Origin: an uncultured Nitrososphaerota archaeon
Lineage (GTDB): Archaea; Thermoproteota; Nitrososphaeria; Nitrososphaerales; CADDZS01
Direction: 5' to 3'
NCBI GenBank assembly: GCA_963799845.1
Contig: CAWCYI010000004.1
Span: 544,001-608,000, forward strand
DNA length: 64,000 nucleotides
Of this stretch, positions 12,905-50,153 are shown piece by piece. The notes beneath the pieces are model-generated. The model saw only the letters and a program-made list of their open reading frames with translations. It did no database searches and was not told the DNA's origin. Made by a program: the position numbers and the translations under genes. Each line of letters opens with the position of its first letter. Within the stretch, counting starts at the first letter, position 1.

Positions 12905-13122
12905 CTTTATTGATTTATTATGCAATTTTTACCCTGTTCTACACGGGAGCGCAATTCTGCGTACCGAAGAGCTCATTTCAAGCCATTGTAAAGTGGGGGG
13001 CCCTCTTGGTGGAGCTCCGCATCCGCGCGTATGAACTCGTAGATTTATTTTCTAGCAGCTCGTTTCAAGCTCCGTTTGATTGAAACAGCTACTTCTTGGC
13101 TATCAGATCGATCGCAGCTCAA
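12905..13122 (+). repeat. AGCT-rich dispersed intergenic repeat, copy A (degenerate long form)
   Basis: Matches the tail of copy B (ATTGATT.ATT...CCGAAGAGCT) and, reverse-complemented, the left part of copy C (GGGCCC block, AGCTGTTTCAAT, GAAACGAGCTG). Confidence 0.7.
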
Positions 13123-13273
13123 GGAACTACTGAGCACCAGATTCGTCAGGTATCCTATTCCCTCACACCACCCAAGATCACAACCAGATCTCCCCTCGTG
13201 ACGTGAAAACTCCCAGATCAAGACAAAATTCGTAAATATCCGTTGATATTAAGATATTAGCTGATTTTTAATA

Positions 13274-14008
13274 ATGTCCCAGCAGTGCGAGGTCTGCGAG
13301 TGCGCGGACGACTCCTGCGAGCCGTGCAAGAGCCAAGCTTGCCTCCAGAAAAACTGCTACTCCTGCTGCTGCGTAGAGTCACACAGCGAGTGGAGGAAGC
13401 GGAGAATCCACCGCGGATTGCAGATCGAATATCTCAGCGTCGTCTGGATGCTGGTCGAAGTCGTAGGAGCCTTCGCCGCGGGAATCGCTGCTTCAAGCTT
13501 CGCTTTACTTGCCTTCGGGTCTGATTCCGTGATCGAACTGGCATCAGCTTTCGTGGTGTTAAGGCATCTTAGGATAGACGACTCCGGTTCGAACGCTCAG
13601 GGCGAAAGGACGGCACTGCTGACGAGCATACTTTTGATCTCAATCGTTCCGGTGATCGGTATAGGTTCGACGTACGCCTATTTTGTATTGAAAATTCATC
13701 CTCAACCGTCAGTTATAGGCATCGCTATCGCACTCGGTTCCGTGATAATAATGCCGATCCTCTGGCGCGAAAAGAGTAAGATCGGCCGCGAGACAGGTTG
13801 TCTTCCGTTGTCTATCGACGCGATGGAATCCGCAGCGTGCTTTCTCATGGCGCTCGCGCTGCTCGGTGGACTAGTTGGAGAGTACCTCTTCAAATTAGGT
13901 TGGCTGGACTACGCCGCGACTCTCGTAATCCTGGGCTTTGTAGCCTTCGAGGCAAAGGAATCATTCGAAGAGGCTAGAAATCACTTTGTCAACTTTGTTA
14001 GGAAGTAG
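13274..14008 (+). CDS. CDF/cation-efflux-like membrane protein with Cys-rich N-terminus
   Basis: 11 Cys in first 34 aa; S.ALLAFG.DS.IE..S, DA.E...C, W.D..A motifs. Confidence 0.85.
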   Translation: MSQQCEVCECADDSCEPCKSQACLQKNCYSCCCVESHSEWRKRRIHRGLQIEYLSVVWMLVEVVGAFAAGIAASSFALLAFGSDSVIELASAFVVLRHLRIDDSGSNAQGERTALLTSILLISIVPVIGIGSTYAYFVLKIHPQPSVIGIAIALGSVIIMPILWREKSKIGRETGCLPLSIDAMESAACFLMALALLGGLVGEYLFKLGWLDYAATLVILGFVAFEAKESFEEARNHFVNFVRK

Positions 14009-14165
14009 ATTCTCAGGAAATAACCGGGGGACTCATTAGAGCTTTGCGGACTGGATTTCCACTTTTTTTCATCATTTCGTCGATCAAGCCAAAGGACAAG
14101 CCCGTGGCGGTCACGACATGAATTAAGACGCAATAATTTTTAGGCAAACGCGGTACTATTTCGAT

Positions 14166-15202
14166 TCTCTTTTCCGACAATTATTTCGCAAGCTGGTAAA
14201 CAGGAGTAGACTGGGAGAGTTTTGGAAGAGCGTAACAAAGCGTTACGAGAAACATGTGCCCGCGAAGCTTGATAGCGACAAGATCAGTTACCTCTTCAGA
14301 GCTAGAGAAAGGGGCGAGACCTGCGCAAACATTGCTCTCCAGCTCGGGGTGTCAAAGAGGAGGGTTGAGCAGATACTTGCCCAGCATAGGAAAGGTGGGG
14401 GTGTGCCTCTCCTCCTCAAGAAACCAGGAAGGAAAAGCATTCCAATTACCGACGAGGAAACTTCGCTCGTCATTGATGCTTATCAGAGATATAGGGCAAA
14501 CGCCCTCTACCTTGAACGAAAGATCGAGTGCGATAGCAAGATTCACATCAACCACAACAGGATACACAGGGTGCTCCTGATGAACTCCTTTGCGTCAAAC
14601 TCTAGGAAGAAGTGGATAAGGAGAAAGTGGGTCAGATACGAGAGGGAACACTCGAATTCATTATGGCATACGGACTGGCACGAGGTAAAGGATCCGAGGT
14701 GGAAGGGCAAGTGGCTCACCTGCTATGAAGATGATGCTTCTCGTCTCATTACCGGATTTGGGGTCCATGAAACGCTGACCTCGGAGTACTCTGTTTCCTG
14801 TCTTGAGAGCGCCATGAAGGAACACGGCAAACCTGCATCGATCCTATCCGACCACGGAACCACATTTTACACGATGGAATCTGAGAGGAGGGAGAAGGGG
14901 ATGACAGAATTCGAGAGGTGTCTCTTGAAGCACAAGATAAGATTCATCCTCGGAAGAGTCAACCACCCCCAGACGAACGGCAAGATCGAGAAGTTCTTCG
15001 ACATATTCGAGAGTAAGATCAAGTGGTTCTCCTCGATAGATGAGTTCATGAAGTGGTACAATGAAGTGAGGCCTCATGGAGCCCTTGACCTCAAGACGCC
15101 AACCCAGGCTTACTACGAGAAGATGCCGCAGTTAGATGCTCTTGAATATCCTTTGTCTATGGAGGTCTCCTGACAGATGCGAAATGATTTCTGGAAAAAA
15201 CA
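14166..15202 (+). mobile_element. IS481-family insertion sequence with 14-bp target duplication
   Basis: Imperfect 25-bp TIRs 14166-14190 and 15178-15202; GGTACTATTTCGAT at 14152-14165 and 15203-15216. Confidence 0.9.
14256..15173 (+). CDS. IS481-family DDE transposase
   Basis: RYER.H.NSLWHTD, EDDASR, ILSDHG, HPQTNGKIE, YN.VRPH.AL...TP. Confidence 0.93.
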   Translation: MPAKLDSDKISYLFRARERGETCANIALQLGVSKRRVEQILAQHRKGGGVPLLLKKPGRKSIPITDEETSLVIDAYQRYRANALYLERKIECDSKIHINHNRIHRVLLMNSFASNSRKKWIRRKWVRYEREHSNSLWHTDWHEVKDPRWKGKWLTCYEDDASRLITGFGVHETLTSEYSVSCLESAMKEHGKPASILSDHGTTFYTMESERREKGMTEFERCLLKHKIRFILGRVNHPQTNGKIEKFFDIFESKIKWFSSIDEFMKWYNEVRPHGALDLKTPTQAYYEKMPQLDALEYPLSMEVS

Positions 15203-15254
15203 GGTACTATTTCGATAATAAAATCAATATAGGTCCCTCCTTCACGAGTGATCC

Positions 15255-15623
15255 ATGAGTGACGATAAAGAACTACGAGAATTGCTTGCAGATAGTATAG
15301 ATGCGGTAAAGGAATTATTAGAGGAATACGACGCTACTATAGCGGTCTATGCGAAACGAGAAACGGGAACAACTGAAGAAATTCGCGATGCAAGATTAAA
15401 TCGAGAGTTATTCATTGAATCCCGATTCAATCTCTCGAATACATTAACTGTTTTGAGCTTGTTAGAATTGTTTGTCGATAGCTTTTCTAAGAAAATCGGA
15501 AGCTTATCCGAAAATGCCGATAAAGTCCGAGAACTCCTTGAGAAGATGAACCTCGAAATCGACAAGGCAACGGAACGCTCTCAGGAGAGGCGAAGCAATT
15601 TATCGCTAGGTCTTCACCATTAG
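15255..15623 (+). CDS. Hypothetical helical/coiled-coil protein
   Basis: 122-aa ATG ORF with amphipathic helices. Confidence 0.6.
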   Translation: MSDDKELRELLADSIDAVKELLEEYDATIAVYAKRETGTTEEIRDARLNRELFIESRFNLSNTLTVLSLLELFVDSFSKKIGSLSENADKVRELLEKMNLEIDKATERSQERRSNLSLGLHH

Positions 15624-15629
15624 CGTTTC

Positions 15630-23999: not shown

Positions 24000-24695
24000 T
24001 CAAATTTCAGACTCTGCAAACTGCTTCGAGTAGTGCTTTGCCAGCGTTGCTCTCTGCCCAGATGGCGAATGAAGTTCGATGGCTGTATCGCACTTGGAAA
24101 AAAGTGATCCGACCCTTTCCTTTGAAGAGGCTACGACGAACATGCCGTTTTTTTTCTTGCCTGAGGCAATCCTGGCCAGGTCCTGCGCGATCAGAAGCTG
24201 CAGTACCTCGGTTTCGTCCGCGGTGTTGTCCTCCTCGTTGAACATGCTGTCTATGCCGGTGACGAAAACCGATCTGACCGGTTCCCCGGTTTTGGAAATT
24301 TCTTTTCCGAGCTTGTCTGAAACGAGCTTTCGAAGCTGGTAGCAGGTGAAGGCTCGAAATATCGTGATGCGTTCGCAAAACTTTCTTGCGGACGCTTCGC
24401 TCTTGATCGGCGCGCACTTTTCCACGATCAGGTACGGATCAAAAGAGTTTGCCGCATCGATGAAGATCGCCTGCTCACCGAATATTCGGATCGAATTTCC
24501 GCAGAGTATGTTCATCAACAGATCAGCATTCTTGCCGTACAAAAATGTCAGAGTGTTCGGAGCGAGCCCTCCGGAAAGGAGCGCGTCGATTTTGTTCCCA
24601 AAGACGAGCCCCCTCATCTGCGAAGCTTTTTTCACGAAGCGCATTGCACCGAGAAGGTCGTCGTCGTGTTTTTTCTCCTGCTGATACTCTAGCAA
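24000..24695 (-). CDS. Inactivated RadA/RecA-like protein of the PolB2 cassette
   Basis: IDALL.GGL....T.LYG with eroded Walker A, FIDAANSFDPY, I.IFRAFT.YQL. Confidence 0.85.
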   Translation of the reverse strand: MLEYQQEKKHDDDLLGAMRFVKKASQMRGLVFGNKIDALLSGGLAPNTLTFLYGKNADLLMNILCGNSIRIFGEQAIFIDAANSFDPYLIVEKCAPIKSEASARKFCERITIFRAFTCYQLRKLVSDKLGKEISKTGEPVRSVFVTGIDSMFNEEDNTADETEVLQLLIAQDLARIASGKKKNGMFVVASSKERVGSLFSKCDTAIELHSPSGQRATLAKHYSKQFAESEI

Positions 24696-24708
24696 CTCGC
24701 CTTCCTCC

Positions 24709-24954
24709 TCAAAGAACCGTCTGGAGTAAAGACTCGAGCTGCGCTTCTCTCTCTAAAATAACCGCAAGCATCACGGAGCGCATGGGAACAAGTTTTACCG
24801 CGGCAGAACAGGCTTGGGAATTCTTGTCGCAAAACTGCAACATTTCCAGTAACAGCAATTTTTCCCTTTTGGGCAATTTTTTCCCGAAGGTCTGCATCAT
24901 TCGGGTGATCTCCTGCGAAATCACCATCTGAAATGCCGGAATCGTCCTGCCCAA
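24709..24954 (-). CDS. Small PolB2-operon protein (MGRTxP family, arCOG07300-like)
   Basis: MGRTIPAF...ACSAAV.LVP...V.L signature; first gene of the cassette. Confidence 0.75.
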   Translation of the reverse strand: MGRTIPAFQMVISQEITRMMQTFGKKLPKREKLLLLEMLQFCDKNSQACSAAVKLVPMRSVMLAVILEREAQLESLLQTVL

Positions 24955-24957
24955 GAT

Positions 24958-24992
24958 ATTTACAGTATAATTACAGTAATTTTACTATAGTT
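24958..24992 (-). promoter_or_regulatory. 11-bp-period direct repeats overlapping the PolB2 cassette promoter
   Basis: TTACAGTATAA TTACAGTAATT TTACTATAGTT on + strand immediately upstream of the TTG start at 24954. Confidence 0.55.
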
Positions 24993-25020
24993 TTAAGCAT
25001 TTGTGGGTAGTCTCTTCATA

Positions 25021-25171
25021 TACGAGTTCCCATTGATTCATTAAGAAAAAAATTTTCTGCGTTTCACACACGTGAGTACTTTTTGGCCGAAGAGCTACGT
25101 TCGAGCGCTGTTAGCTCAGAAGAGCTTGAAACGAGCTGAACGGAGCTCAGAGAGCTCGAAACGCCGAGTTC
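25021..25171 (+). repeat. AGCT-rich dispersed intergenic repeat, copy B (short form)
   Basis: AGCT at 25093, 25113, 25123, 25134, 25144, 25153; 19-nt end identical (reverse complement) to 50135-50153; 20-nt other end identical (reverse complement) to 31111-31130. Confidence 0.9.
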
Positions 25172-25215
25172 AATTCTTGGAGGTCAGCCGGTAGCTGTCC
25201 CGAAATCACGGCCGG

Positions 25216-25971
25216 TCAGCTTTCAGCGTCGTCCCGCGGATCGTATCCGATGACCTCTTTCGCGTGCGAGATGTCCCAGAAACGCCACTTGTTCTTTGAG
25301 ACGCCGTAGAAGACGTCGTATCTTACCTCGGTTTCAAGTGATTTTTCAACGAGTTGGACGAGATCGCGATGAGACAGCCACGTCGCAAAGAAGCGAACCT
25401 CCTCCGGTCTGGGCCGCTCGTAGGGGCGAACTGTTCCAATCCGAAGGCATATCACGGAGACTCCGTATTCACCCGAGTAATACTGCCCGAGCCCCTCCCC
25501 GAAAAGTTTGCTCGCGCCGTAGAAGCTGTCGGCTCTGGCGGGGGATAGATGCGACACCATTGAGATTTTGGAAGTATTGATTCCGCGAAACTCTCCCTTG
25601 ACTATGGAGGAGATCGGCCAGTCCTTCTCGTATAGTCCAGTGACATGGTTTGAACTCGCAAAAATTATTTTCCCGATCCCGTGCTTGCGCGAGGCCTCGA
25701 AAACGTTGTAAGTTCCCAAGATATTTTTCGAGTACACAGAGTCCCAATCAGCCTCGAGCGAGGAGTTGGCGGCGAGATGGATGACGGCATCCTTGCCCTC
25801 GAAGAGATGTTCGATATCATCCAGTTTCGTGATATCTCCCTTCACGCACTCTTTCCCGTCTGTTTCAACGTCGAGGCAGGCAAGTTCGTACCTGTCATTC
25901 AGAGCGGGCTTGAGGATTGTGCCGATTACTCCACAGCCACCGGTTATCAGCAATCGTTTCCTTGTGCTCAT
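25216..25971 (-). CDS. NAD-dependent epimerase/dehydrogenase (uronate dehydrogenase-like)
   Basis: ITGG.G.IG, FASSNH, YGASK.FGE, CLRIG, ATWLSHRD, YGVS.N. Confidence 0.88.
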   Translation of the reverse strand: MSTRKRLLITGGCGVIGTILKPALNDRYELACLDVETDGKECVKGDITKLDDIEHLFEGKDAVIHLAANSSLEADWDSVYSKNILGTYNVFEASRKHGIGKIIFASSNHVTGLYEKDWPISSIVKGEFRGINTSKISMVSHLSPARADSFYGASKLFGEGLGQYYSGEYGVSVICLRIGTVRPYERPRPEEVRFFATWLSHRDLVQLVEKSLETEVRYDVFYGVSKNKWRFWDISHAKEVIGYDPRDDAES

Positions 25972-26183
25972 ATTCGCAAGTTCTCCAACCTACAGTCGAG
26001 GAACCTCCTTTTTCAATCTGTTTTCATAAGCAGGCTTGACTGTCCAATCTGTTACGCTATCAAGAATCCCACAGTGGGTTTTGCTAAAAAAAAGTCAGCT
26101 ATGATCCATGTAACTTCGGGTGGTTTACTTTCGTTTTGATAATGCATAGTCCGAGTTCAGGAAAAATTCAACTCGCCATCGAG

Positions 26184-27399
26184 TTACTTGAGGGAATCGA
26201 GAGAAAGAAGAAAAGCACCCGCGATCCCAATCAGTGCAATAGAGGCGAGGGCCCCGAATCCAAGCGAGAAGCTGCCGGTTCTGTCCAGAATTATCCCAAA
26301 AAGAACAGGCGACACGATTGAGCCGACGTTACTGAGAGTGTTGAACACTCCGAAAGTCATCCCGGCTGCGGAAACTCCCTGTCTGGAGGCATAAGGTATT
26401 AGAGAAAAATCTGTCGCAAAATATAGGTTTGCCCCAAAACCGATCCCAAAAATCAATACAATCGTTGAGCCGAGCGATCTTGAAATCCCGAAGAGTAAAG
26501 TAAACAGAAAAAGAAGTACCATTGAAACACCGATGGTTTTTCTGCTCCCGAGTCGGCGGTCGGAAATGCCGCCGCAATACGACCCTATGATCGTTGCGAC
26601 GCCTATCAGTGCCACGATCCCGCCGGCGGTCGAGTTTGAGACCCTGAAGGTTGAGATGAGATAGTCGGACGCCCATGCGAATGACCCAAACGTCACTGCC
26701 ACGGATGCAAAGTTGGGAAGCATCAGCGCAAACATGTTTCTGGTGAAAAGACCCCTTAACCACACCTTCTGTCTCGCGAGGGTTCCGGAGATAGTGCTTG
26801 TCGTCCAGATTGCCGGAAATATCAGCAGGATTGCTGTAACGATCGAGTATAAAGTCGTGGCCAGTAGTGGAGGCTTCCAGTCGATTCCGGAAATCAGGAG
26901 CGGAAGAAGCGATGATGCGACTAGCCTGTCCCGCCCCGTTTGCAGATCCGAAAAGACCCATCGCCTTTCCGAGCTCATTTCTAGGGAACCACTGGGATAG
27001 GAGCCGCACCATGGAGGGAAAGACTACGCCCCCGGAAGCTCCTGCAATAAATCGTGATGCGAGTATTGCGTCAAATGAGCCGCCCGTGATAAACGGTCCT
27101 GGTGCAAGCGCCATGACGAACGAGGCCACGAGAAGTGTCCTTGCCGACCCAAACCGATCGGCGAGGTATCCTCCAGGTATCTGCATGGAAGCATAGGGGA
27201 TGAAGTAGAATGAGGTCACAAGACCGGTCTGCGCGTTTGAGAGAACAAATTGGTCCGTGACAAGTTTTGAGATCGAAGGAAAGTCGAGGTTGGAAAGCAC
27301 GAAGGAGACTGTAGCTGCAACCACGATGACGAGGACAAAATATCTCCGTTCGAGCGGTGCGTTGTGCCCCATGAGCGAATTCTCGCGATCTTGGGTCAC
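26184..27399 (-). CDS. MFS transporter (~404 aa), one 1-nt frameshift near 26925
   Basis: G.LADRFG.AR and WFP..E.G.A.G in ORF 26329-27399, continuing in ORF 26184-26978 (G.ISDRRLG.RK). Confidence 0.85.
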
Positions 27400-27477
27400 C
27401 GATTATCTTAGTCTAGAAAAGCAATTCTGTACAAGTCTGGACTTCTTGGCACGATACTGCTCTAAAAAAACCTATTC

Positions 27478-27572
27478 GGAATGAAAAACGTCCCTCCGGG
27501 GTGCGGGTCAAGCCCACGGCTTTCCTTCCTTAAACGGATAGTCAAGCTCTGCCCCGGAAAGAACGTCATTCC
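27478..27572. other. Long imperfect inverted repeat, candidate structured RNA
   Basis: GGAATGA..CGTCCCTCCGGGG ... CCCCGGAAAGAACG-TCATTCC; mismatches become G-U pairs on the minus strand. Confidence 0.45.
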
Positions 27573-27782
27573 AACTTTCGAGAACCCATTTAGCAGTTGT
27601 GGATTCCCGCCTCGATATCGGAAAGGGGAATAATTTGATGGGCAACCTTCGAGTTTGTGTCGGACTCTTGAAGTATTTGATTCCACAGTCCTACATTACC
27701 TGCTTGTGGCGAACGGAAATAAGAAAAAGAGAAATTCTCTGCAGTCAATCCGTTGGATATTAGAAACTGGCCCAAAGAATGG

Positions 27783-27814
27783 TAAGAAAACTAGGTTCCT
27801 CTCAAGTTTTCTTA
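27783..27814. promoter_or_regulatory. Perfect 10-bp inverted repeat, candidate operator
   Basis: TAAGAAAACT-N12-AGTTTTCTTA upstream of padR. Confidence 0.4.
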
Positions 27815-27969
27815 TGACTACCAGAATTTGACAATCTGTATACAATTTTTAGATAACAGAACCAAATATTTCATGATAAAGTCGAGCAAAATCTCGATCT
27901 CAACTCTGGCCAAATACGCATAATATCGTAATTGGCCTGCACGACGTTTCTACAGAGTATTCATTCCAG

Positions 27970-28410
27970 ATGTCGGAACAAGAAGCACAGGCCTCCGGAA
28001 GAAAGTCGTTTTTGGGATTCAACGATTGGTTAGAACCTGATGGTCCGGTAGACGAACCGCGTAGCGCGTCATCCGAAGAGCCGGTGATAACATTCGTTGA
28101 GCTCGCGATGCTCTCTATACTAGATTCTACTCCAATGACGGGGTACGTTCTCAGGAAGACGCTGCTCACGCAGTTCGGGCTGAAGACGAGCTTTGGCACG
28201 CTTTATCCCCGACTGAAAGCGCTCGAAAAGTCCGAGATAATCAAATATTCCGAGAATGTGGGTCGGCTCGCCACCCGCAAGTCCGGGATAAATTACGAAC
28301 TTACCCCATATGGTAAAAAGATCTTTAATTCGAACTTGAGATTATTTCAAGAGTACTTTAGAAAAATTCAGTCGAATGTCTCCGCTCGATTTCTTAAAAC
28401 GTCACAGTGA
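27970..28410 (+). CDS. PadR family transcriptional regulator
   Basis: LSIL...PMTGY.L, S.GTLYP.L..LE, YELT..GK. Confidence 0.88.
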   Translation: MSEQEAQASGRKSFLGFNDWLEPDGPVDEPRSASSEEPVITFVELAMLSILDSTPMTGYVLRKTLLTQFGLKTSFGTLYPRLKALEKSEIIKYSENVGRLATRKSGINYELTPYGKKIFNSNLRLFQEYFRKIQSNVSARFLKTSQ

Positions 28411-28658
28411 AATCCAGCTCAGTTTGATTTTTAGCGTATCAAATCACGAGCAGCCCCGATTTTTTGAATCCCAAAATTGCCCGAGTTTCGCCAGTTTTGG
28501 ATACCTAATATCCCGCAACCAAAAATCGATACTATCTGCGTTGGATATATACGTGATATATAGCTCACAAATCCATTTACGCGATCAGCATCTCTTAGAT
28601 TTCTAGTCAAGTATTAACCAGAAAACCCTTGCGATCAAAAATAGAGTGAATAAGAATA

Positions 28659-30029
28659 ATGTTTCTAAAAGACAGTAATGGTGCTAGATCTTCGGCGGCT
28701 ATTTCATTTAGCGTCTTGACGCTTTTCATTGTCTCTTCGATCTTTGTGTTGAGTGCCCTTGTGCCTACTACCGCTGCTCTAAATAATACGACGCCAGTCT
28801 TCAATGCTGCGTTTAACCTCAGTAGCGATAAGGGGAATGCAATGTACCCCATGGATGCGAACTCTGGTAGCCACGTCTACGTAGTGTGGACTGAGGGACA
28901 TGGAGGGATAATGTTTCGGTCCAGTTCGGACAACGGATCTACGTGGACTCCACTTTTGACTTCTCCGCCAATGAAGTTGAGCGTCGGTAGCTCATACATG
29001 CAGTATCCGGTGATACAGGCGAATGCGTCCAATGTTTATGTCGCCTGGACTCAAACGGTCGGTGGATTCCAGCAGATATATTTCGTCTCAAGCACTAATT
29101 ACGGCGCAAATTTCAGTACACCAATCGATGTTGATGGAAATACCACCACACAATGCGTCACGCCCGTTATCGGGTCTTGGGGAACTACCGTCTATGTCGC
29201 GATGGCGTGCGGCGGTGGTGGCGGTGTAAAGGGCTTTTCATATGTTGTCGCAAGTACAAAAGCCGGGGCCGCGGGATCATGGACAAAGCCGCTCTTGATA
29301 TCGCCGTTCCATGAGCCACAGCTTTACGCATCCGCCTTCGCGGGAGTTGCAGTTTCCGATCAAGGGATCGTGGTGACACAGGATAATGGTACTACTTGGA
29401 CGCCAGTGGTTATCTCTGGTTGTTGCGGCGGCGAACCGTGGGTGTGGGGATATGGCTCGAACATCTACATTGCCTGGGAAACTAAGGGTAGTATGAGCGA
29501 GACTTACTATGCGTACAGCCACGACAACGGTACCACGTGGACTCCAGAAATTTTGCTCTCGACGACAATCACGGATGCATGGGGACCAAAGATAGCAGCG
29601 TGGGGAAATAACGTGACGATAACCGTGACAGTGCATCCTGCCAGCCATTCAGCCCAGGATTACATCTACGTGTCGCACGACGCGGGCGTCAGCTTTACGG
29701 GTCCGATCGCCGAGAGTGGAACTTCGACAGACATCGGAACCACTCTGAATGTGAATGAGTATGGCAACTACCTGTTTGCGATCTACGGGAGAGAGACGAC
29801 TCCCAGCGGCACCTGGATTACGTATGCGACGTACAGCACCGATGGTGGAACAACCTGGGTTGCCGCGCCGGGAATTAACATCTCGAACAATGCGAACGGA
29901 GAAGCAGCGAATCCCAGTGACATTTCTTCGGGCTGGGTAATGAATTTCGGACCGGCGGCGTTCGCTTGTTGGTCTTACACGCCTTCCGGATCGTCAATTT
30001 CGCAGATATACTTCGCTTCATCTTCCTGA
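28659..30029 (+). CDS. Secreted Asp-box (BNR/sialidase-like) beta-propeller protein
   Basis: Signal peptide; repeated S.DNG.TW / S.D.G..F Asp boxes. Confidence 0.85.
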   Translation: MFLKDSNGARSSAAISFSVLTLFIVSSIFVLSALVPTTAALNNTTPVFNAAFNLSSDKGNAMYPMDANSGSHVYVVWTEGHGGIMFRSSSDNGSTWTPLLTSPPMKLSVGSSYMQYPVIQANASNVYVAWTQTVGGFQQIYFVSSTNYGANFSTPIDVDGNTTTQCVTPVIGSWGTTVYVAMACGGGGGVKGFSYVVASTKAGAAGSWTKPLLISPFHEPQLYASAFAGVAVSDQGIVVTQDNGTTWTPVVISGCCGGEPWVWGYGSNIYIAWETKGSMSETYYAYSHDNGTTWTPEILLSTTITDAWGPKIAAWGNNVTITVTVHPASHSAQDYIYVSHDAGVSFTGPIAESGTSTDIGTTLNVNEYGNYLFAIYGRETTPSGTWITYATYSTDGGTTWVAAPGINISNNANGEAANPSDISSGWVMNFGPAAFACWSYTPSGSSISQIYFASSS

Positions 30030-30128
30030 GAGAGTAGCGAGGAGTCATCCCTCTCCCTTTCTCTGAGGAGCTTTTTTCTGCATAGTTTTCTTATGGTTGA
30101 AAATATCGCGTGATCGTTTCCAACTTTT

Positions 30129-31028
30129 CTAATCTAACGATTCCAAGATCCTTTCAACATATTCCTTGGATTCCGCAGCAAGATCCACGAAGGACTTGCC
30201 CGTAATTCCGTAGCGGTAGGGAATCATGATCATCGGCCCATCAAAATTAATCTCGACCAGCGTCCTGACCATCGACTCGATGTCCAGAGACCCCTTACCC
30301 GGAACTAAATGCGAGTGTAAAGATATGATGTCCAGGTGGTCCCGGATCCAGGCCTGGACCGGCTTTATCGAGTCGGCCATGTGAACCTCGGAGAGTACGC
30401 CCTGGACAGCCGCATACCTGATCATGGCGCTGGCGTCGGCTTCCATCCGGCCGGCGAGGACGAATGTGTGCGGAGCCACGTAAATGTATTTGACGTTCTT
30501 GCAACCCGACTCGCGGATGAGGTCGACGCACGGATCGGATTCCTCGATGAAATCTCCGGGGTGCGGCATGAAAGCGAGCTGGATTCCCTCATCACGAAGA
30601 ACAGGATCGAGCTCCCTGACTGATTTTGTCCACGCCTCTTCATGGTCCAAGTGATAGAGCGGTCTCCCGCCCATCTGGGAGTAGATCTGCCTGCAGCCGA
30701 ATTTCTTGCAAAGCTTGATCAACTTTGTGAATTGCGCGACGCCCCTCTTCCGGACGATCTCGTATTCGGGATCGGCGGGCGAGCTGGGGAGCTGCTCCAT
30801 CGCGCCGGATAGGCCGAGGGCGTTCCAGGCGTTGAAGGTCACGAGGTCCGTGGGCTTTAATCCCGATTTCTCGAGCTGAGTCTGCACCGATTCGACGACC
30901 TGATCGTTTGGGATCATTCCCATTTCGATACCCGGAAACAGCATCGGGTGGAGCGCGACGTATTCGAAGCCCCGGTTTTTGAGATGATCAAAAGCGTCAA
31001 GGGAGTGCGCGTAGGCGGTTAACTTCAA
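30129..31028 (-). CDS. Sugar phosphate isomerase/epimerase (IolH-like TIM barrel)
   Basis: PHPGDFIE, Y.Y.APHTF, VH.ADS, H.HL.PG.G. Confidence 0.8.
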   Translation of the reverse strand: MKLTAYAHSLDAFDHLKNRGFEYVALHPMLFPGIEMGMIPNDQVVESVQTQLEKSGLKPTDLVTFNAWNALGLSGAMEQLPSSPADPEYEIVRKRGVAQFTKLIKLCKKFGCRQIYSQMGGRPLYHLDHEEAWTKSVRELDPVLRDEGIQLAFMPHPGDFIEESDPCVDLIRESGCKNVKYIYVAPHTFVLAGRMEADASAMIRYAAVQGVLSEVHMADSIKPVQAWIRDHLDIISLHSHLVPGKGSLDIESMVRTLVEINFDGPMIMIPYRYGITGKSFVDLAAESKEYVERILESLD

Positions 31029-31110
31029 TTTAGGTTATCCTGCCTACCTGAGATTTCAGACCCTTATAGCAATTAACTCAGCCCAGTCCGATATGATAAG
31101 AATTCAAAAC

Positions 31111-31521
31111 GAACTCGGCGTTTCGAGCTCCGATTGAGATACAGATAGGCGAAACAAGCTGTTTCAATTGAACAAAGCTGAGAAACGAGCTGAACAGAAA
31201 GTACTCTCTAGAGTGCTTCGAGCACGGTTGCAGAACTCTCCTGGGGGGGCCCTTTCCATACATAATCGGCTAAAATTTCCAGAACATCCTCGAAAACTCG
31301 AAAATCCAGTACGAAATGATCAACTCGACGATTGTCGAGTAACATCTCCATCAATGTTCTTTGTGTCACCGTTCAATTCGTTCTGAGCTTACTAAGCTCC
31401 GTTCAGCTTGAAACGAGCTCTTCTGAGCTTACAGAGCTTGAACGTAGCTCTCTCGTCAAAAGGTACGCGCGGTTGCGAAATCGCACAATTTTTTCTATAT
31501 AAGAATCAATGAGAACTGGTA
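31111..31521 (-). repeat. AGCT-rich dispersed intergenic repeat, copy C (long form)
   Basis: AGCT at 31126, 31157, 31176, 31188 and phased array 31386, 31395, 31405, 31416, 31426, 31435, 31446; tail AAGAATCAATGAGAACTGGTA. Confidence 0.9.
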
Positions 31522-31590
31522 TTTGAATGACGAGGGTTTTCTTGAGTCAGTTAGGTGCTTCTGCCTGGATTTCATATTCCTAGAATATCG

Positions 31591-32118: not shown

Positions 32119-32172
32119 GTGACTGTCTCCAGTTCACCCGTCCCTGGATATATCGAAGTTCTTATGCTTCTC

Positions 32173-33042
32173 TCAGTGAAATAGAGCCGCGATATAAAGC
32201 AGCATGAATCCAACTGCCAGCGCGAAGAATTTTCTTCCACCGAGATAAGAGGGAGCATTCACACCAATCGCAAACTTGTCAGACAATGCCTGGGAGAGCC
32301 GTATCGCGGCGTAGAATGCAGCTGTCACTCCAAAAGCGTAGAAGTAAGTTGTGTCAAGCGAAATGTAATATCCCAGAGAAGTTCCGATTACGGAAGTCAG
32401 CCCGAAAAACAATCCCAGAACCGGTAAATGCCACTTTGCCTTCTGAGCTAATTCGGTTCGACCTATATAGCACGTGTAGACAATGGCTATTATCGAAGAT
32501 TCGAAGAATTTGTGAAGCGGATATGAAATTACGGCATTCCATCCTCCAAATGCAGTGACCAGACTTCCGGTCGTCGCAGCTGATGCGGCCGAGGCAAAAT
32601 CCCAACCCTCTCCCATACCGTGTATTCCCATCACCGCGGCGACCCCTATCGGAACTAGGACTAGGGTTTTCGATTTTCCTGTAGAAATTGAAACCTGTCC
32701 ATCCTCAAATTTTGAGTTTGGGACCGCGTAGTGGTCGATGATTGCAAGCGCTACAATTCCGCCAAGGAATGCGGCAATTACTGCAAAGTGCGTCGCTCCG
32801 TTGAACGAAGAAAATGGGTATATGGCATAATTGACATCAAGCTGGGCTGCGTCTCCCATCGTATCAAAGAAGAACCAGAAAGTAAGTCCAACTCCTGCGG
32901 CGGCTAGAATAGCTGTCTGTATCGGCTTTAGTCTGGGAATGATGAACAGAGCCAGGTAAGCGGGAATGAGAGTCCCGGCAATTATTGCTAATAGGGTAGT
33001 TCCGTAATCTATCATTTTTGGCGAAACTCGCAATTGAAACAA
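32173..33042 (-). CDS. ZIP-like divalent metal transporter
   Basis: About 8 TMs with GIHGMGEG and LHKFFE metal motifs. Confidence 0.7.
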   Translation of the reverse strand: MFQLRVSPKMIDYGTTLLAIIAGTLIPAYLALFIIPRLKPIQTAILAAAGVGLTFWFFFDTMGDAAQLDVNYAIYPFSSFNGATHFAVIAAFLGGIVALAIIDHYAVPNSKFEDGQVSISTGKSKTLVLVPIGVAAVMGIHGMGEGWDFASAASAATTGSLVTAFGGWNAVISYPLHKFFESSIIAIVYTCYIGRTELAQKAKWHLPVLGLFFGLTSVIGTSLGYYISLDTTYFYAFGVTAAFYAAIRLSQALSDKFAIGVNAPSYLGGRKFFALAVGFMLLYIAALFH

Positions 33043-33138
33043 CGTATTGAAGGTTATGGCTCAATCTGCGAACTCTGATCAAGTGGTGAACTTCGGTAAC
33101 GTATTAGAATAGAAGCGAGTTATCGTCAGGAGTGTAAA

Positions 33139-33567
33139 TTGCTCGATTCAATAATCAGCGGCAGTTGGCTGGTCACCTCTCCTAGTTTGAGTACCTCTTC
33201 GATAGATTGGGGTGACGCAGTGATGCACATTCTCATAGTTGCCCTATCTATCGCTGTGCTATCTGTATCTCTTCTTGCTTACAACAGAAGACGAAACAGG
33301 AGATACCTGTATCTTACGGTAGGGTTTCTCTTCATCTTCTTGAGTCAATTTGCAACACTGTTTGAGGTCGTATTTCTTTCTAATGCCCTAATAATAATTC
33401 CTTCGATCGGTCTTCATCTTTCTCATGTGTTTGATTTCTTGACCCTTATCTTTTTCCTGTTGGCGCTTTCCGGGTATGGACAGGAGGGAGCCCGCAAAAA
33501 GACAGTTATCGAGCCATTCTCAAGCGCTCAAAAGCAAGCACCGCTTGCTAACAAAAAGAACATCTGA
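33139..33567 (+). CDS. Small membrane protein (archaeal SL.AY.RR family)
   Basis: Three TMs, VSLLAYNRRR...L.L..GF. Confidence 0.7.
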   Translation: MLDSIISGSWLVTSPSLSTSSIDWGDAVMHILIVALSIAVLSVSLLAYNRRRNRRYLYLTVGFLFIFLSQFATLFEVVFLSNALIIIPSIGLHLSHVFDFLTLIFFLLALSGYGQEGARKKTVIEPFSSAQKQAPLANKKNI

Positions 33568-33643
33568 CAATGCTTCTGAGTACATGTTCAAGCAAAATAA
33601 ATTACATAATTCACTTTTTCCGTTCTTGATGGAAAAGCTGGGT

Positions 33644-34027
33644 TCAAATAACGATCAGCTTGACGCTTTTCATCTTGTCTTCCCTCTGGAATTCTTTTGC
33701 CATCTTGGAAACACGTTTTGCATCACCTTCGACAAGGAATAGCTCGACGCAATTTGTGTGTCCAATCTTGTTGTGAATGTGCGTCTTTACGATTTCGTCA
33801 AATTCGTGTTTAACTTTTGTAATCGGAGCCTCATCGGACTCATCGTGAGTAACAACTATGATCGCATTTGCCTTCCCAGCGAGAGAGTCTTTTTCCTTGG
33901 AGTCTTCGAGCAAGAGCCGAATAACTGCTCTAACCAGTTCAGACCGACCGGTAAATCCCCCAGCGCTCTGGACCTGATCCATTTCCTTTATCATCTGTTC
34001 CGGGAATGACAAACTGACGATTGGCAA
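33644..34027 (-). CDS. NikR-like CopG/RHH metal-responsive regulator
   Basis: IVSLSFP....D....GF.GRSEL.R, VTH, THIH.K....CVE. Confidence 0.88.
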   Translation of the reverse strand: MPIVSLSFPEQMIKEMDQVQSAGGFTGRSELVRAVIRLLLEDSKEKDSLAGKANAIIVVTHDESDEAPITKVKHEFDEIVKTHIHNKIGHTNCVELFLVEGDAKRVSKMAKEFQREDKMKSVKLIVI

Positions 34028-44908: not shown

Positions 44909-44919
44909 GTTGGATATGG

Positions 44920-48123: not shown

Positions 48124-48130
48124 TCATGAA

Positions 48131-49003
48131 ATGACTCAAAACGAACCGTCGTTAGAGGGTAACAAACTCCCGACAAGCATGACGCAGGTGGGGATTATCA
48201 TGCGCTACGAGATTTTGAATTACTTCAGGTCTCGAAGATTCTTCATCCTCTTGGTAATCGCTCTTCTGATTTCTGTACTTCTTACGCTTGTGGTTGGCTA
48301 CTACGGCGTGTCAAAGATTGCCGGATCACCGCCGCAACCTCTCGCATTTTACGGTGCCTGGTGGGGATTTGCCTCCAGCCTGGTTGTAGTATTTTGCGCA
48401 GTATTTTTCGGTGGAGATGCGATTTCGGGAGAATTTCAGAACAAGACTGGCTACTTTCTGGTGGGAAATCCAATCCGACGTTCATCGATTTACGTCGGAA
48501 AATGGATTGCCGCGTTGATTGCGTCGCTGATCATAATTGCGGTGTTTACTGCAATTCTAGTGGGCAACGGATTCTACTATTTTGGAGCTAACATTCCGAC
48601 CCAATTTGGAGAAGCTTTCCTGTTCACTTTGGTCTATCTGATCGCCGCACTCGGCTTCACTTTCTTTTTCAGCTCGCTTTTCAAGAGCAGTTCCTTCTCT
48701 ATCCTTGTAACTGTGATTCTGCTGCTGTTCGGATTCAGTCTCATAGATACGCTAGTGACGAACATTGCAAACGTAGAGCCGTGGTTCACCCTCAGTTATG
48801 GTTCGGGCATAATCACAAACGTGTTCACGGTTCCCTATCCTAACCATGTATCGACTCTTAGCGGATTCGGCGGTGGTGGGAGAGGCCCATCTCTGAAAGA
48901 GTTTATCCCGACAATTCCGGAAGGTCTCGCCATAATGGTAATCTACTTTGCCGTGACCGCGATTCTCGGTCTCCTGCTCTTCGAGAAAAAAGAGTTCAAC
49001 TAG
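48131..49003 (+). CDS. ABC-2 type permease
   Basis: DAISGE...TG.F....PI.R..I..GK; 6 TMs. Confidence 0.9.
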   Translation: MTQNEPSLEGNKLPTSMTQVGIIMRYEILNYFRSRRFFILLVIALLISVLLTLVVGYYGVSKIAGSPPQPLAFYGAWWGFASSLVVVFCAVFFGGDAISGEFQNKTGYFLVGNPIRRSSIYVGKWIAALIASLIIIAVFTAILVGNGFYYFGANIPTQFGEAFLFTLVYLIAALGFTFFFSSLFKSSSFSILVTVILLLFGFSLIDTLVTNIANVEPWFTLSYGSGIITNVFTVPYPNHVSTLSGFGGGGRGPSLKEFIPTIPEGLAIMVIYFAVTAILGLLLFEKKEFN

Positions 49004-49169
49004 AATTTCTTCATTGCCCGTTGGAGGCGTTTGGAGAATTTTCGAAATTAATTTTAAGATCGTGGTTGCTTCGGTTCTAGGAGAATGTTCTCTGACTAAT
49101 CATCAGGAAGATAGTTCCTGACTTCAGTAGCGTTTAATCCTTAACTTGATTGCAGTCGAGTGAAATAAT

Positions 49170-49925
49170 ATGCGTTTTGTCAGATTCGTTTCCAACGGCA
49201 AAGTTCTCGAAGGCTCCGAGGAAGATGGAATTCTAGTTGAGACAGAAGGAAAGTCCCACATCGAAGCCGAGGTGGTCTGGTTGCCCCCGGCTACCCCGTC
49301 CAAGATCATTGGGCTGGTTCTGAACTATCGCGACCATGCAGACGAGCTCGGACTCAGCATCTCTGAAGAGCCTGTAATATTCTTGAAACCCCCCAGCTCG
49401 CTAATAGGAAACTTTGGCGACATTGTCTATCCTAGCGGAGTCAAGTACATGCACTATGAAGGGGAGTTAGCTGTCGTAATCGGCAAGCCGGCGAGAAAAG
49501 TCAGTTCCAAAAGAACGATGGATTTTGTCAAGGGTTTTACGATCGCCAACGACGTTACGGTGCGTGACTACATTTCGAACACTTTTCGGCCGCCGCTGAA
49601 AGCGAAGGGATTTGATACTTTTTGTCCGGTTGGTCCCTCTGTTGTCACTCCGGACGAGGCTGGAGATATCTCAAATCTGAACATCAGAACACGGGTAAAT
49701 GGAGAACTTCGTCAGCAGGGCAACACTAAGAACCTCATACATCCAGTTCCGAAGTTGATAGAATTTCTGTCAGATTTCATGACCCTTCTGCCGGATGATC
49801 TGATACTCACGGGAACGCCGAAAGGCATTTCCCCCGTACATCCTGGGGACAAGATCGAAATTGAAATCGACAACCTCGGCAAACTCACGAACACGGTTGT
49901 CCCGGAATTAGAAAATGCGGAATAG
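49170..49925 (+). CDS. Fumarylacetoacetate-hydrolase family protein (HpaG-like isomerase/decarboxylase)
   Basis: LNY.DHA.E, F.KP, HYEGEL, ND.T.RD, K.FDTF.P.GP, LTGTP.G; next to hpaB/D. Confidence 0.88.
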   Translation: MRFVRFVSNGKVLEGSEEDGILVETEGKSHIEAEVVWLPPATPSKIIGLVLNYRDHADELGLSISEEPVIFLKPPSSLIGNFGDIVYPSGVKYMHYEGELAVVIGKPARKVSSKRTMDFVKGFTIANDVTVRDYISNTFRPPLKAKGFDTFCPVGPSVVTPDEAGDISNLNIRTRVNGELRQQGNTKNLIHPVPKLIEFLSDFMTLLPDDLILTGTPKGISPVHPGDKIEIEIDNLGKLTNTVVPELENAE

Positions 49926-50010
49926 ATCCCAAGTGTGTTGCACGAGTACTTCGATTCTTAGTCTCGGATGTACTTTCAAAATCTTAACCATTGCGCACTC
50001 CAAAAGACCC

Positions 50011-50153
50011 CGTTTCGAGCTCTGTAGACTCAGAAGAGCTTGAAACGAGCTGAACGCATTGAACAGAGCTTGAACGTCAGCTCTTCGGCTGAAAAGTGCT
50101 CACGTGTGAAACGCAGAAAAAAAATTCTACTTAAGAATCAATGGGAACTCGTA
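50011..50153 (-). repeat. AGCT-rich dispersed intergenic repeat, copy D (short form)
   Basis: AGCT at 50018, 50037, 50048, 50067, 50079; flanks collinear with the reverse complement of copy B. Confidence 0.9.

What the first reader, a model, noticed from the sequence alone, without database searches (positions are those of the whole stretch)
12905..50153. Unannotated dispersed intergenic repeat family built on helically phased AGCT arrays (4 copies in 64 kb)
Seen: four homologous non-coding elements at 12905-13122, 25021-25171, 31111-31521 and 50011-50153. They share a tail (AAGAATCAATGGGAACTCGTA) and an opposite end (CGTTTCGAGCTC). The core has AGCT every 9-11 bp: seven sites at 31386-31446, and six plus one variant at 25093-25153. 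Long forms (A, C) add a GGGCCC block and more AGCT sites. There are no TIRs matching the IS481 or IS630 in the window and no credible ORF. Inference: this density would mean many copies genome-wide. One-face-of-helix spacing of a palindromic 4-mer suggests a protein-binding or methylation-sensing platform (analogous to GATC clusters read by SeqA), a histone nucleation site, or a new non-autonomous element or ncRNA.
Basis: partly seen in the sequence, partly recalled or inferred. Interest (0 to 1): 0.85.

Follow-up and report, generated by a model that had tools for sequence, protein, structure and literature searches.

The report
Palindrome-rich dispersed repeat family in an archaeon
The four elements are real copies of an old, palindrome-rich intergenic repeat family, about 90 sites in this soil archaeon and found only in its close relatives, that most likely copies itself with help from an enzyme not yet identified.

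Summary
Four homologous non-coding elements lie in the window. The AGCT arrays exceed chance: 7, 6 and 5 sites per 70 bp, against at most 5 in 50 simulations.

The family has about 90 loci in this 4.6-Mb Nitrososphaerales MAG. A sequence profile finds it in 6 of 12 other genomes of the same family and in 0 of 108 genomes of other families of the order.

It is a mosaic of palindromic modules, not a simple tandem array. I found no terminal inverted repeats in the main family, no target duplications, no parent IS, no Rfam match and no covariation.

12 of 20 copies in a sister species sit in the same intergenic region as a G000 copy. The four full-length pairs are 78-88% identical, while four-fold degenerate sites are 57% identical and flanks are at random baseline. 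Copies cluster by genome.

Best reading: a persistent, vertically inherited, non-autonomous repeat population resembling bacterial REP/BIME/REPIN elements, with the mobilising enzyme unknown. The methylation, histone and ncRNA readings have no support. Interest is moderate.

The parts
12838..13135 (-). Copy A. It is a hybrid: the left module of the long form (with the GGGGGGCCC block) joined to the core of subfamily 2, whose diverged tail is TTATTGATTTATTATGC. Boundaries are approximate.
   Evidence: The profile hit is 12906-12990. The left extension was inferred from the alignment of the 21 subfamily-2 copies.
25011..25175 (-). Copy B, short form. On the minus strand it runs from the left end GAACTCGGCGTTTCGAGCTC, through the AGCT array, a GC-rich palindrome and a T-run, to the tail ATGAATCAATGGGAACTCGTA.
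25093..25156 (.). AGCT array of B. It has six AGCT sites and forms a 61-bp imperfect palindrome: arms 25100-25126 and 25134-25160 are 74% complementary around the 7-nt centre TGAAACG.
31111..31530 (+). Copy C, long form. It runs from the left end, through four loosely spaced AGCT sites, the GGGGGGGCCC block and an extra internal module, to the short-form core at about 31362-31530.
31386..31449 (.). AGCT array of C. It has seven AGCT sites spaced 9, 10, 11, 10, 9 and 11 bp, arranged as nested imperfect inverted repeats.
50005..50165 (+). Copy D, short form, with a three-spacer block of the array inverted relative to B. The tail is AAGAATCAATGGGAACTCGTA at 50133-50153. Three copies in the genome share a further 22 bp beyond it.
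50018..50082 (.). AGCT array of D. It has five AGCT sites and includes a 13-bp stem, 50011-50023 paired with 50035-50047, that is 92% complementary.

Best explanation
The four elements belong to an old, lineage-restricted superfamily of non-coding, palindrome-rich mosaic repeats.

Its conserved core consists of:
- the motif CATTGATT(T/C)AT;
- a GC-rich palindrome whose sequence differs by species;
- the motif GCAATTCTGCGTACCGA or a variant of it;
- the inverted repeat AGAGCT-N7-AGCTCT.

In the main family of this genome and its sister species, that last unit has been multiplied into a 60-70 bp imperfect palindrome. This multiplication is what produces AGCT every 9-11 bp.

I infer that the elements are non-autonomous. 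On this view they are copied, or re-copied over resident copies by gene conversion, by an enzyme encoded elsewhere that recognises the invariant AGAGCT/AGCTCT arms or the hairpins they form. The population is passed down vertically and persists through speciation, as bacterial REP/BIME/REPIN populations do.

Shown: copy number, restriction to one family, mosaic structure, intergenic placement biased away from divergent promoter regions, copies in the same intergenic regions of two species, conservation far above neutral, clustering of copies by genome, and recurrent inversion of the hairpin spacer.

Inferred: mobility itself, the copying mechanism, and the existence of a trans-acting enzyme.
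For: **Abundance and age**
- A profile from three window copies gave 125 hits in 76 loci, 35 of them full length. There are about 90 merged loci totalling 13.6 kb, spread evenly along the two large contigs.
- Copies are diverse. Within G000 the median identity over the core is 0.65 and the 90th percentile is 0.83.
- Two IS families checked in the same genome (18 and 11 copies) are at least 98.6% identical; a third (6 copies) has median 99.2% and minimum 82.7%.

**Distribution**
- A 22-nt exact pattern occurs, besides the window's own genome, in one species of 185,579. That species is a Nitrososphaerales MAG equal to G003. The pattern occurs in 0 viral contigs and in 28 metagenome contigs that are 65-94% like G000.
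- The core profile R1 finds G000 (80 matches), G003 (45), G004 (23), G012 (8), G002 (6), G005 (4) and G006 (1). That is 6 of 12 other genomes of the family, and 0 of 108 genomes of 19 other families of the order.

**Placement**
- Of 48 strong loci, 16 are convergent, 26 tandem (15 co-oriented, 11 anti-oriented), 4 divergent, 1 inside an ORF and 1 at a contig edge.
- The background of intergenic regions of at least 200 bp is 807 tandem, 430 divergent and 309 convergent.

**Mosaic structure**
- There are long and short forms, alternative right-hand extensions, and a GC module found on either side and in either orientation.

**Maintenance**
- 12 of 20 G003 copies lie in the same intergenic region as a G000 copy.
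- Four-fold degenerate sites of 26 flanking orthologous genes are 57.2% identical, over 3,302 sites.
- 120-bp flanks score 0.42-0.67 in 21 of 23 comparisons. Unrelated sequence scores 0.56 +/- 0.04.
- The four pairs in which both copies are full length are 0.78-0.88 identical.
- The nearest neighbour of every G002 copy (6 of 6) and every G004 copy (10 of 10) lies in its own genome. Each species has its own variant of the GC palindrome.

**Hairpin unit**
- The five pairs of the GAGCT/AGCTC stem are kept in 25-27 of 27 sequences from four species, without covariation.
- Its 7-nt spacer occurs as CGTTTCA in 14 G000 main-family copies and as the reverse complement TGAAACG in 12. Both forms occur in subfamily 2, G002 and G004.
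Against: - No transposition event was seen. I found no clean empty site against G003 or the metagenome contigs, where boundaries are blurred by saturated intergenic divergence.
- No paralogous empty site exists in G000.
- No contig of four public soil runs skips exactly element B or C.
- No target-site duplication was found. The mean longest shared word is 3.8 in true flank pairs and 3.5 +/- 0.46 in shuffled pairs, from 15 pairs.
- The main family has no terminal inverted repeats.
- No partner was identified. The ends of 18 IS families and of the genome's IS605-like element do not match.
- Y1 transposase occurs only in G000, as two copies inside IS605-like elements, and in 0 of 14 relatives, including four other genomes that hold the repeats (G002, G003, G004, G005).
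- No protein family recurs next to the elements: 134 flanking ORFs gave only clusters of two.
- Conservation above neutral could equally reflect host selection on a function.
- Orthologous copies are not each other's best match. The ortholog ranks first in 2 of 12. This fits conversion or turnover, but it also weakens the claim that they are the same insertions.
- The gene map behind the placement statistics is my own crude ORF and codon-usage caller.
- The relatives are MAGs that are 58-96% complete.
Confidence: 0.55

Rival explanations
1. This is a host-serving DNA element, not now mobile. The phased GAGCT units, alternating with A/T-rich spacers, would form a binding or wrapping platform for a chromatin or nucleoid protein (a histone, an Alba-like protein or a dimeric regulator). 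Purifying selection would keep them in intergenic regions.
For: - Elements at shared loci are far better conserved than four-fold sites and flanks.
- AGCT columns are more conserved than spacer columns, 0.894 against 0.77, with permutation p 0.0008.
- The AGAGCT-N7-AGCTCT arms are invariant rather than covarying, as expected for sequence-specific recognition of duplex DNA by a dimer.
- The mean spacing of 10 bp places the sites roughly on one face of the helix.
- A histone-fold gene is present.
- Copies are spread evenly along the contigs.
- There is no orientation bias.
Against: - Only one AGCT-N7-AGCT pair is conserved across species. The long phased array is specific to G000 and G003, with a shorter one in G005.
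- Nearly all 165 positions are similarly conserved among copies, which fits recent common descent or conversion better than selection on a binding site.
- Copies cluster by genome with species-specific variants.
- The spacer-column conservation figure is lowered by the spacer inversions, so the AGCT contrast is partly an artefact.
- Many copies are truncated, or interrupted by an IS or other insertions.
- No binding data exist.
Confidence: 0.2
2. Each copy is transcribed and acts as RNA: a small RNA gene, or a 3'-UTR stabiliser or terminator cassette. In the C/D orientation the array hairpins are followed by a run of seven or more T, and then by TATA-like sequence.
For: - The main family carries a T-run (TTTTTTTC) after the GC palindrome.
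- Copies are enriched at gene 3' ends, with convergent regions at 16 of 46 against about 20-22% of the background.
- The tail region resembles the genome's own upstream motif. TTAAAT and TAAATA are enriched at about -40 to -20 of 1,016 genes, and the tail reads CTTAATGA or TATWTRAAG.
- D ends about 50 bp upstream of the TTG start of the hpaB-like gene.
Against: - Rfam gave nothing.
- There is no consensus structure and no covariation on either strand.
- Single-copy folds are unremarkable, with z from -0.7 to -2.0.
- There is no orientation bias in tandem regions, 15 against 11.
- The T-run is absent from subfamily 2 and from the copies of other species.
- Distances from the tail to the next co-oriented gene vary from 54 to about 700 bp.
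Confidence: 0.1
3. The AGCT clusters are a methylation-reading platform, analogous to GATC clusters read by SeqA or to the CcrM-site-bearing CIR repeats of Caulobacter.
For: - A palindromic 4-mer is clustered at about helical spacing.
- An intergenic repeat named for its association with a methyltransferase has been described. CIR is mentioned in passages of the review PMC10969869.
Against: - AGCT is not depleted or notably enriched genome-wide, at 1.10.
- No PF00145 C5-methyltransferase was found in the 86.7%-complete genome. N4 and N6 methyltransferases were not searched.
- Most species keep only two AGCT sites per copy.
Confidence: 0.03
4. This is an ordinary MITE whose parent IS is simply missing from these incomplete assemblies, or is extinct.
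For: - The elements are small, non-coding, multi-copy and intergenic, with subfamilies and truncated copies.
- Subfamily 2 has palindromic terminal motifs, TTTCC-N-CAGGTCT..GTACC..GACCT on the left and ..GACCTGAAAA on the right, which can be read as imperfect inverted ends.
- The genome is IS-rich.
Against: - There is no target duplication.
- No matching IS ends were found among 18 families.
- The right boundary of the main family is not sharp.
- The family has persisted across a whole archaeal family with species-specific variants, and is 65-90% diverse within a genome. Two IS families checked in that genome are 98.6-100% identical; a third has median 99.2% and minimum 82.7%.
Confidence: 0.1

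Closest known systems
REP / BIME elements and REPIN-RAYT systems of bacteria
   Same: - Both are extragenic, palindromic, in tens to hundreds of copies, and built as mosaics of units in either orientation.
- Both are favoured at gene 3' ends.
- Both are diverse within a genome, vertically persistent in a lineage, and present at shared loci in related species.
- These REPIN and BIME properties come from the abstracts listed and from passages of bioRxiv 10.1101/2021.07.10.451892.
   Different: - The host is an archaeon. [quoted passage not shown]
- No single-copy RAYT was found. Y1 transposase occurs only inside IS605-like elements of G000 and in 0 of 14 relatives.
- The unit here is much longer (165-420 bp), and its conserved palindrome is AGAGCT-N7-AGCTCT rather than a GC-rich REP of about 14-35 bp.
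Prokaryotic MITEs, including the archaeal ones listed for Sulfolobus, Halobacterium and Haloquadratum in PMC10969869 (passages)
   Same: Both are short, non-coding, multi-copy and mainly intergenic, with size variants and truncated copies.
   Different: - The main family has no terminal inverted repeats and no target-site duplication.
- No parent IS was found.
- The family's persistence is far longer than that of the IS copies in the same genome.
IS200/IS605-derived palindrome-associated elements (PATEs). The name and properties are recalled, not taken from a call.
   Same: - Both lack inverted ends and duplications, and both have hairpins near the ends.
- A short semi-conserved word, (A/T)T(T/C)G, sits just left of the left end.
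   Different: - The ends of the resident IS605-like element are unrelated.
- Y1 transposase is missing from the other genomes that hold the repeats.
Iteron or centromere-like arrays (for example parC of plasmid R1) and GATC/SeqA clusters. Both are recalled, not taken from a call.
   Same: Both have short motifs repeated once per helical turn over 60-70 bp.
   Different: - Here there are about 90 dispersed chromosomal copies.
- The array is an imperfect palindrome, not a direct-repeat array. Tandem Repeats Finder finds nothing.
- The long array is confined to two species.

Membership tests
Canonical MITE | Terminal inverted repeats | tested here: not met
   In the main family, the left end GAACTCGGCGTTTCGAGCTC and the right end ..AATCAATGGGAACT-NN-TATWTRAAGAAC are not inverted copies of each other. 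Subfamily 2 has palindromic terminal motifs that could be read as weak inverted ends.
Canonical MITE | Target-site duplication | tested here: not met
   From 15 copies with both ends, the mean longest shared word is 3.8, against 3.5 +/- 0.46 for shuffled pairings. Caveats: the copies are old and the right boundary is uncertain.
Canonical MITE | Ends shared with a transposase-bearing IS | tested here: not met
   18 IS families of G000, each taken with 100-bp flanks, gave only internal chance matches of 15 nt or less. The ends of the IS605-like element gave matches of 12 nt or less.
Canonical MITE | Short, non-coding, multi-copy, mostly intergenic | tested here: met
   There are about 90 loci with median length 137 bp. 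1 of 48 strong loci lies inside a called ORF.
REPIN-RAYT / REP-BIME | Extragenic palindromic units combined in mosaic, in either orientation | tested here: met
REPIN-RAYT / REP-BIME | Single-copy Y1 (RAYT) gene co-inherited with the repeats | tested here: not met
   PF01797 gave two hits in G000, both inside IS605-like elements next to tnpB. It gave 0 of 14 relatives, including four genomes that hold the repeats (G002, G003, G004, G005). Those MAGs are 61-87% complete.
REPIN-RAYT / REP-BIME | Long vertical persistence with within-genome diversity | tested here: met
   Found in 6 of 12 other genomes of the family and 0 of 108 outside it. Within-genome identity is 0.65-0.89. Two IS families checked are 98.6-100% identical; a third has median 99.2% and minimum 82.7%.
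Known RNA family (Rfam) | Match at gathering score, or a conserved structure with covariation | tested here: not met
   0 hits in the window. Only matches with E >= 1.1 over copy C. The alifold consensus is -3.3 kcal/mol on both strands and -5.6 kcal/mol across species with invariant pairs.
Tandem repeat / minisatellite | Head-to-tail copies of one unit | tested here: not met
   Tandem Repeats Finder returned 0 rows at minimum score 30 over copies B and C. The arrays are nested imperfect inverted repeats.
Methylation-site cluster (SeqA/GATC-like, CIR-like) | A cognate methyltransferase and modified sites | tested here: inconclusive
   PF00145 was not found and AGCT observed/expected is 1.10. 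N4/N6 methyltransferases were not searched, and modification calls are not available with these tools.

The most novel reading that the evidence does not exclude
This is an archaeal counterpart of bacterial REPIN-type 'persistent replicators'. It would be a palindromic, non-autonomous repeat population inherited vertically through a whole family of soil Nitrososphaerales, kept alike within each genome by an enzyme that is not a Y1/RAYT transposase. That enzyme would recognise the invariant AGAGCT-N7-AGCTCT hairpin. The hairpin's loop flips between two orientations, which may mark a hairpin or single-strand intermediate in copying.
Probability: 0.25. Interest if true: 0.65.

Novelty: new variant of a known kind. 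Interest (0 to 1): 0.45.

Why it matters
Persistent, vertically inherited repeat populations are so far described only in bacteria. [quoted passage not shown] My two literature searches on Thaumarchaeota or Nitrososphaera with MITE or intergenic-repeat terms found no paper describing such repeats in these archaea.

If this family is maintained by a dedicated enzyme, it would show that such host-element associations arose independently in archaea, and it would point to a new DNA-recognising or DNA-cutting protein.

Practically, the repeats break short-read assemblies of these soil archaea. Contigs of four runs end at them, and summed depth rises from about 6 to 123. They also mark apparent rearrangement junctions, so annotating them improves MAG quality.

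If the family is only a decaying MITE, it is of local interest.

Tried and rejected
**Leads that went nowhere**

- Parent IS. I compared 18 IS families and the ends of the IS605-like element. There was no match.
- Target duplications: none.
- Empty sites against G003 and against a metagenome contig. The intergenic DNA is too diverged to give clean boundaries.
- Paralogous empty sites in G000: none.
- Population variants. I laid contigs of four public soil DNA runs on 24000-33999. Contigs end in the repeats, the joints listed are cross-matches of other copies, and no contig skips exactly B or C.
- Expression. No RNA holder was listed among the public runs, so expression could not be examined.
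- Portable promoter. Orientation relative to the downstream gene is about even, and distances vary.
- Structured RNA: rejected.
- Partner gene by adjacency: none recurrent.
- Y1 transposase as partner: rejected.
- amoA search. There was no hit, but the control genomes did not respond either, so it is uninformative.
- IS insertions next to several copies looked like targeting. By my own rough arithmetic, not a tool result, they are about what chance gives if IS elements are confined to intergenic DNA.

- The look-up of encoding contigs is marked closed and was not called.
- Supplementary files of papers were not consulted.
- The script cap (40 of 40) was reached. As a result, the orthology of the eight extra G003 subfamily-2 loci and the boundaries of the G004 copies were fetched but not analysed.

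Full report
**What the window is**

The window is G000:C4:544001-608000 of a 4.6-Mb, 9-contig assembly with 47-48% G+C. It is 86.7% complete and 4.9% contaminated. The organism is an archaeon, shown by an SSU match. The only other species among 185,579 that carries an exact 22-nt word of the repeat is titled 'Nitrososphaerales archaeon'. That species is a same-genus relative, G003.

**Check of the observation**

- A repeat search links 25011-25175, 31379-31527 and 50014-50161.
- A profile of the shared core, run over the whole window with filters off, finds exactly four strong matches. They are 12906-12990 and 25028-25131 on one strand, and 31408-31515 and 50041-50146 on the other. It also finds six weak matches: five are secondary self-matches inside the four elements, and one (E 0.72, 55928-56011) lies outside them.
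- AGCT occurs seven times at 31386-31446 with spacings 9, 10, 11, 10, 9, 11. It occurs six times at 25093-25153 and five times at 50018-50079.
- Fifty Markov simulations of the window never exceeded five sites per 70 bp.
- Three AGCT sites spaced by 5-7 nt occur 8 times, against 0.1 expected.

Copy A needs correcting:
- It lacks the literal tail.
- It belongs to a second subfamily of 21 copies that are about 90% alike.
- It probably extends from about 12838 to 13135.
- It has only loosely spaced AGCT sites.

**Size and anatomy of the family**

- A profile from three window copies gives 125 hits in 76 loci of G000. Of these, 35 are full length.
- With subfamily 2 and a GC-rich module added, there are about 90 loci totalling 13.6 kb. 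They are spread at 0-6 per 200 kb along both large contigs; the only empty bin is the last, partial bin of C4.
- The short form is about 165 bp. In the orientation of C and D it reads:
  - the left end GAACTCGGCGTTTCGAGCTC;
  - the AGCT array;
  - AGCTCTTCGGCCAAAAAG;
  - a GC-rich palindrome;
  - GAAACGCAG;
  - a T-run;
  - AATGAATCAATGGGAACT, two variable bases, and TATWTRAAGAAC.
- About ten long forms add 250-380 bp. The addition includes CCCCTAGGGGGCCCC and a second copy of the AGCTCTTCGGCC... module.
- The right boundary is not sharp. Subgroups share different extensions of 20-55 bp.
- In G002 the GC module sits left of the core in three copies, right of it in inverted orientation in one, and right of it in direct orientation in one.
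- Tandem Repeats Finder sees no tandem array. The array is a nest of imperfect inverted repeats. In B it is a 61-bp palindrome with 27-nt arms, 74% complementary, around a 7-nt centre.
- Across 48 strong copies, 158 of 218 neighbouring AGCT spacings are 9-11 bp and 31 are 19-22 bp. The phasing is therefore conserved, but as part of one inherited sequence.

**An unusual detail: the spacer flips**

- The 7-nt spacer between two AGCT sites is CGTTTCA in 14 copies and its reverse complement TGAAACG in 12, at the same array position. The two states are combined freely with other variable positions.
- D-type copies have a three-spacer block inverted.
- Both spacer states also occur in subfamily 2, G002 and G004.
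- This points either to recurrent inversion between the short palindromic arms, by template switching or a hairpin intermediate, or to two old alleles shuffled by recombination. I could not tell which.

**What it is not**

- Not a known RNA. Rfam gives nothing at gathering score and only chance matches over copy C.
- Single copies fold no better than shuffles, with z from -0.7 to -2.0.
- 55 aligned copies give a consensus of -3.3 kcal/mol on either strand.
- Across four species, only the GAGCT/AGCTC stem is predicted. It is invariant rather than covarying.
- The genome holds many IS families. These include the IS481-like (rve) and IS630-like (DDE_3) elements of the window. None of 18 families shares ends with the repeat, and neither does the IS605-like element.
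- Fifteen copies with both ends show no target duplication.
- AGCT is not unusual genome-wide, at observed/expected 1.10. No C5 methyltransferase was found.

**Placement**

I used my own rough gene map. The 48 strong loci fall as follows: 16 convergent, 15 tandem co-oriented, 11 tandem anti-oriented, 4 divergent, 1 inside an ORF and 1 at a contig edge. The background of intergenic regions of at least 200 bp is 807 tandem, 430 divergent and 309 convergent.

Four of 46 in divergent regions, against about 27% expected, has a probability of roughly 0.004. That figure is my own normal approximation, not a tool result. Avoidance of promoter regions and indifference to orientation fit a tolerated insertion or an orientation-free DNA element. 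They do not fit a promoter or terminator cassette.

**Distribution**

- BLAST with copy B found strong matches only in G003 among 40 relatives.
- Weak hits in G002 and G004 turned out to be diverged relatives of subfamily 2.
- A sequence-only profile (R1) built from 27 copies, three of them from G002 and G004, then found the family in G000 (80 matches), G003 (45), G004 (23), G012 (8), G002 (6), G005 (4) and G006 (1). That is 6 of 12 other genomes of the family.
- It found the family in none of 108 genomes of 19 other families of the order. This also serves as a specificity control.
- Viral contigs hold none.
- 28 metagenome contigs hold it, with long flank matches 65-94% identical to G000.
- Across species, the conserved parts are CATTGATT(T/C)AT, a GC palindrome, GCAATT..GTAC and one AGCT-N7-AGCT pair. 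Arrays of four or more phased sites occur only in G000, G003 and G005.

**Evidence that the copies are maintained**

- Twelve of 20 G003 copies lie in the same intergenic region as a G000 copy. I judged this from the coordinates.
- The two species are far apart. In 26 flanking orthologous genes, codon positions 1, 2 and 3 are 92.1%, 94.8% and 66.1% identical. Four-fold degenerate sites are 57.2% identical over 3,302 sites.
- The 120 bp on either side of the elements score 0.42-0.67 in 21 of 23 comparisons. Unrelated sequence scores 0.56 +/- 0.04.
- The exceptions are 0.89 beside copy B and 0.72 beside a coding flank.
- The four pairs in which both copies are full length are 0.78, 0.79, 0.83 and 0.88 identical. 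Partial pairs score 0.58-0.74 because the measure is normalised by the longer copy.
- By local alignment, the pairs at shared loci are 0.72-0.94 identical. The ortholog is the best match in only 2 of 12.
- Copies of G002 (6 of 6) and G004 (10 of 10) have their nearest neighbour in their own genome. Within-genome medians are 0.89 and 0.80, against 0.50-0.65 between distant species. Each species has its own GC-palindrome variant.
- G000 and G003 still share subfamilies: 13 of 64 and 13 of 27 nearest neighbours cross between them.
- Two IS families checked in G000 (18 and 11 copies) are at least 98.6% identical; a third (6 copies) has median 99.2% and minimum 82.7%. The repeat population is therefore much older than the current IS populations.
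- A selfish insertion left to decay would by now be unalignable between these species. The copies are therefore either re-copied or converted within each genome, or selected.

**Mechanism, with odds**

I put 0.55 on a non-autonomous, vertically persisting repeat population that is copied or homogenised by an enzyme encoded elsewhere, working like bacterial REP/BIME/REPIN systems. Mobility itself is inferred, not shown.

I put 0.20 on a host-serving protein-binding element. The two readings are not exclusive, since REPIN theory itself invokes a host benefit (passages).

I put about 0.10 each on an RNA role and on a plain MITE with a lost parent, and 0.03 on a methylation platform.

**Comparison with what is known**

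The family meets the descriptive features of REP/BIME/REPIN elements but fails the defining one, a co-inherited RAYT. It fails three of four MITE criteria.

[quoted passage not shown] A review of prokaryotic MITEs lists archaeal MITEs in Sulfolobus, Halobacterium, Haloquadratum and a few others, but none in Thaumarchaeota (PMC10969869, passages seen). Two full-text searches found no paper describing such repeats in these archaea. The other papers are cited from their search listings and abstracts only.

**Limits**

- No RNA data and no modification data were available.
- No close strains were available.
- The relatives are fragmented MAGs.
- The gene map is crude.
- The assembly itself carries single-base indels.

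Noticed in passing
window 25217, 26925, 31180, 31192: Public short-read contigs of two to three runs lack one base at each of these places relative to the window. The assembly therefore probably carries single-base indel errors. 26925 lies where an MFS-transporter gene is split into two overlapping ORFs, 26184-26978 and 26329-27399.
   Followed up: partly
window 50203-51662: The hpaB-like gene (4-hydroxyphenylacetate 3-hydroxylase) downstream of copy D is split by a frameshift. Its N-terminus runs from a TTG at 50203 to 50457, and the rest is in another frame, 50316/50469-51662. It is either a pseudogene or another assembly indel.
   Followed up: partly
window 14156-15221 and 54989-56168: An IS481-like element (rve integrase core, 305 aa) has 11 genome copies that are 98.6-100% alike. 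An IS630-like element (DDE_3, 300 aa) has 6 copies. The 37-nt direct repeat at 14129-14165 and 15180-15216 brackets the first element.
   Followed up: partly
window 61128-61332: Two 85-nt direct repeats, 73% alike and 120 nt apart, lie inside a 633-aa ORF (60691-62592, minus strand) that has no Pfam match. It looks like a repeat-domain protein.
   Followed up: no
L026 (G003 C131) against G000 C6:1054475-1057084 and C4:566531-569177: One G003 contig joins the orthologs of two distant G000 loci exactly within the repeat. The same pattern appears in L013 and L079 against C4:1493890. This is either rearrangement by recombination between copies, or chimeric short-read assembly at the repeat.
   Followed up: no
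G000 C4:886298-886866: One copy is interrupted, between its GC palindrome and its T-run, by about 570 bp. The insert carries an 88-aa ORF with a hydrophobic stretch and a CxxC..C motif, and an internal direct repeat ATTCAACAAAACCAAA.
   Followed up: no
G000 C4:749685-752504 and C6:728085-730901: These are the only two Y1 (IS200/IS605 tnpA) genes of the genome. They sit in two 93%-identical IS605-like elements, whose tnpB is broken and which both carry the same 1.2-kb IS inserted at the same place.
   Followed up: partly
G000, upstream regions of 1,016 genes: TTAAAT, TAAATA and CTTAAA are the most enriched hexamers at about -40 to -20 from start codons, by 8.1, 4.4 and 4.4 fold. This is probably the TATA box of this organism.
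   Followed up: no
window 24709-24954 and flank 24890-25010: The 120 bp beyond the tail of copy B is 89% identical between G000 and G003, unlike all other flanks. It covers the start of a weak 81-aa ORF with no Pfam match. It may be a conserved small gene or a regulatory region.
   Followed up: no
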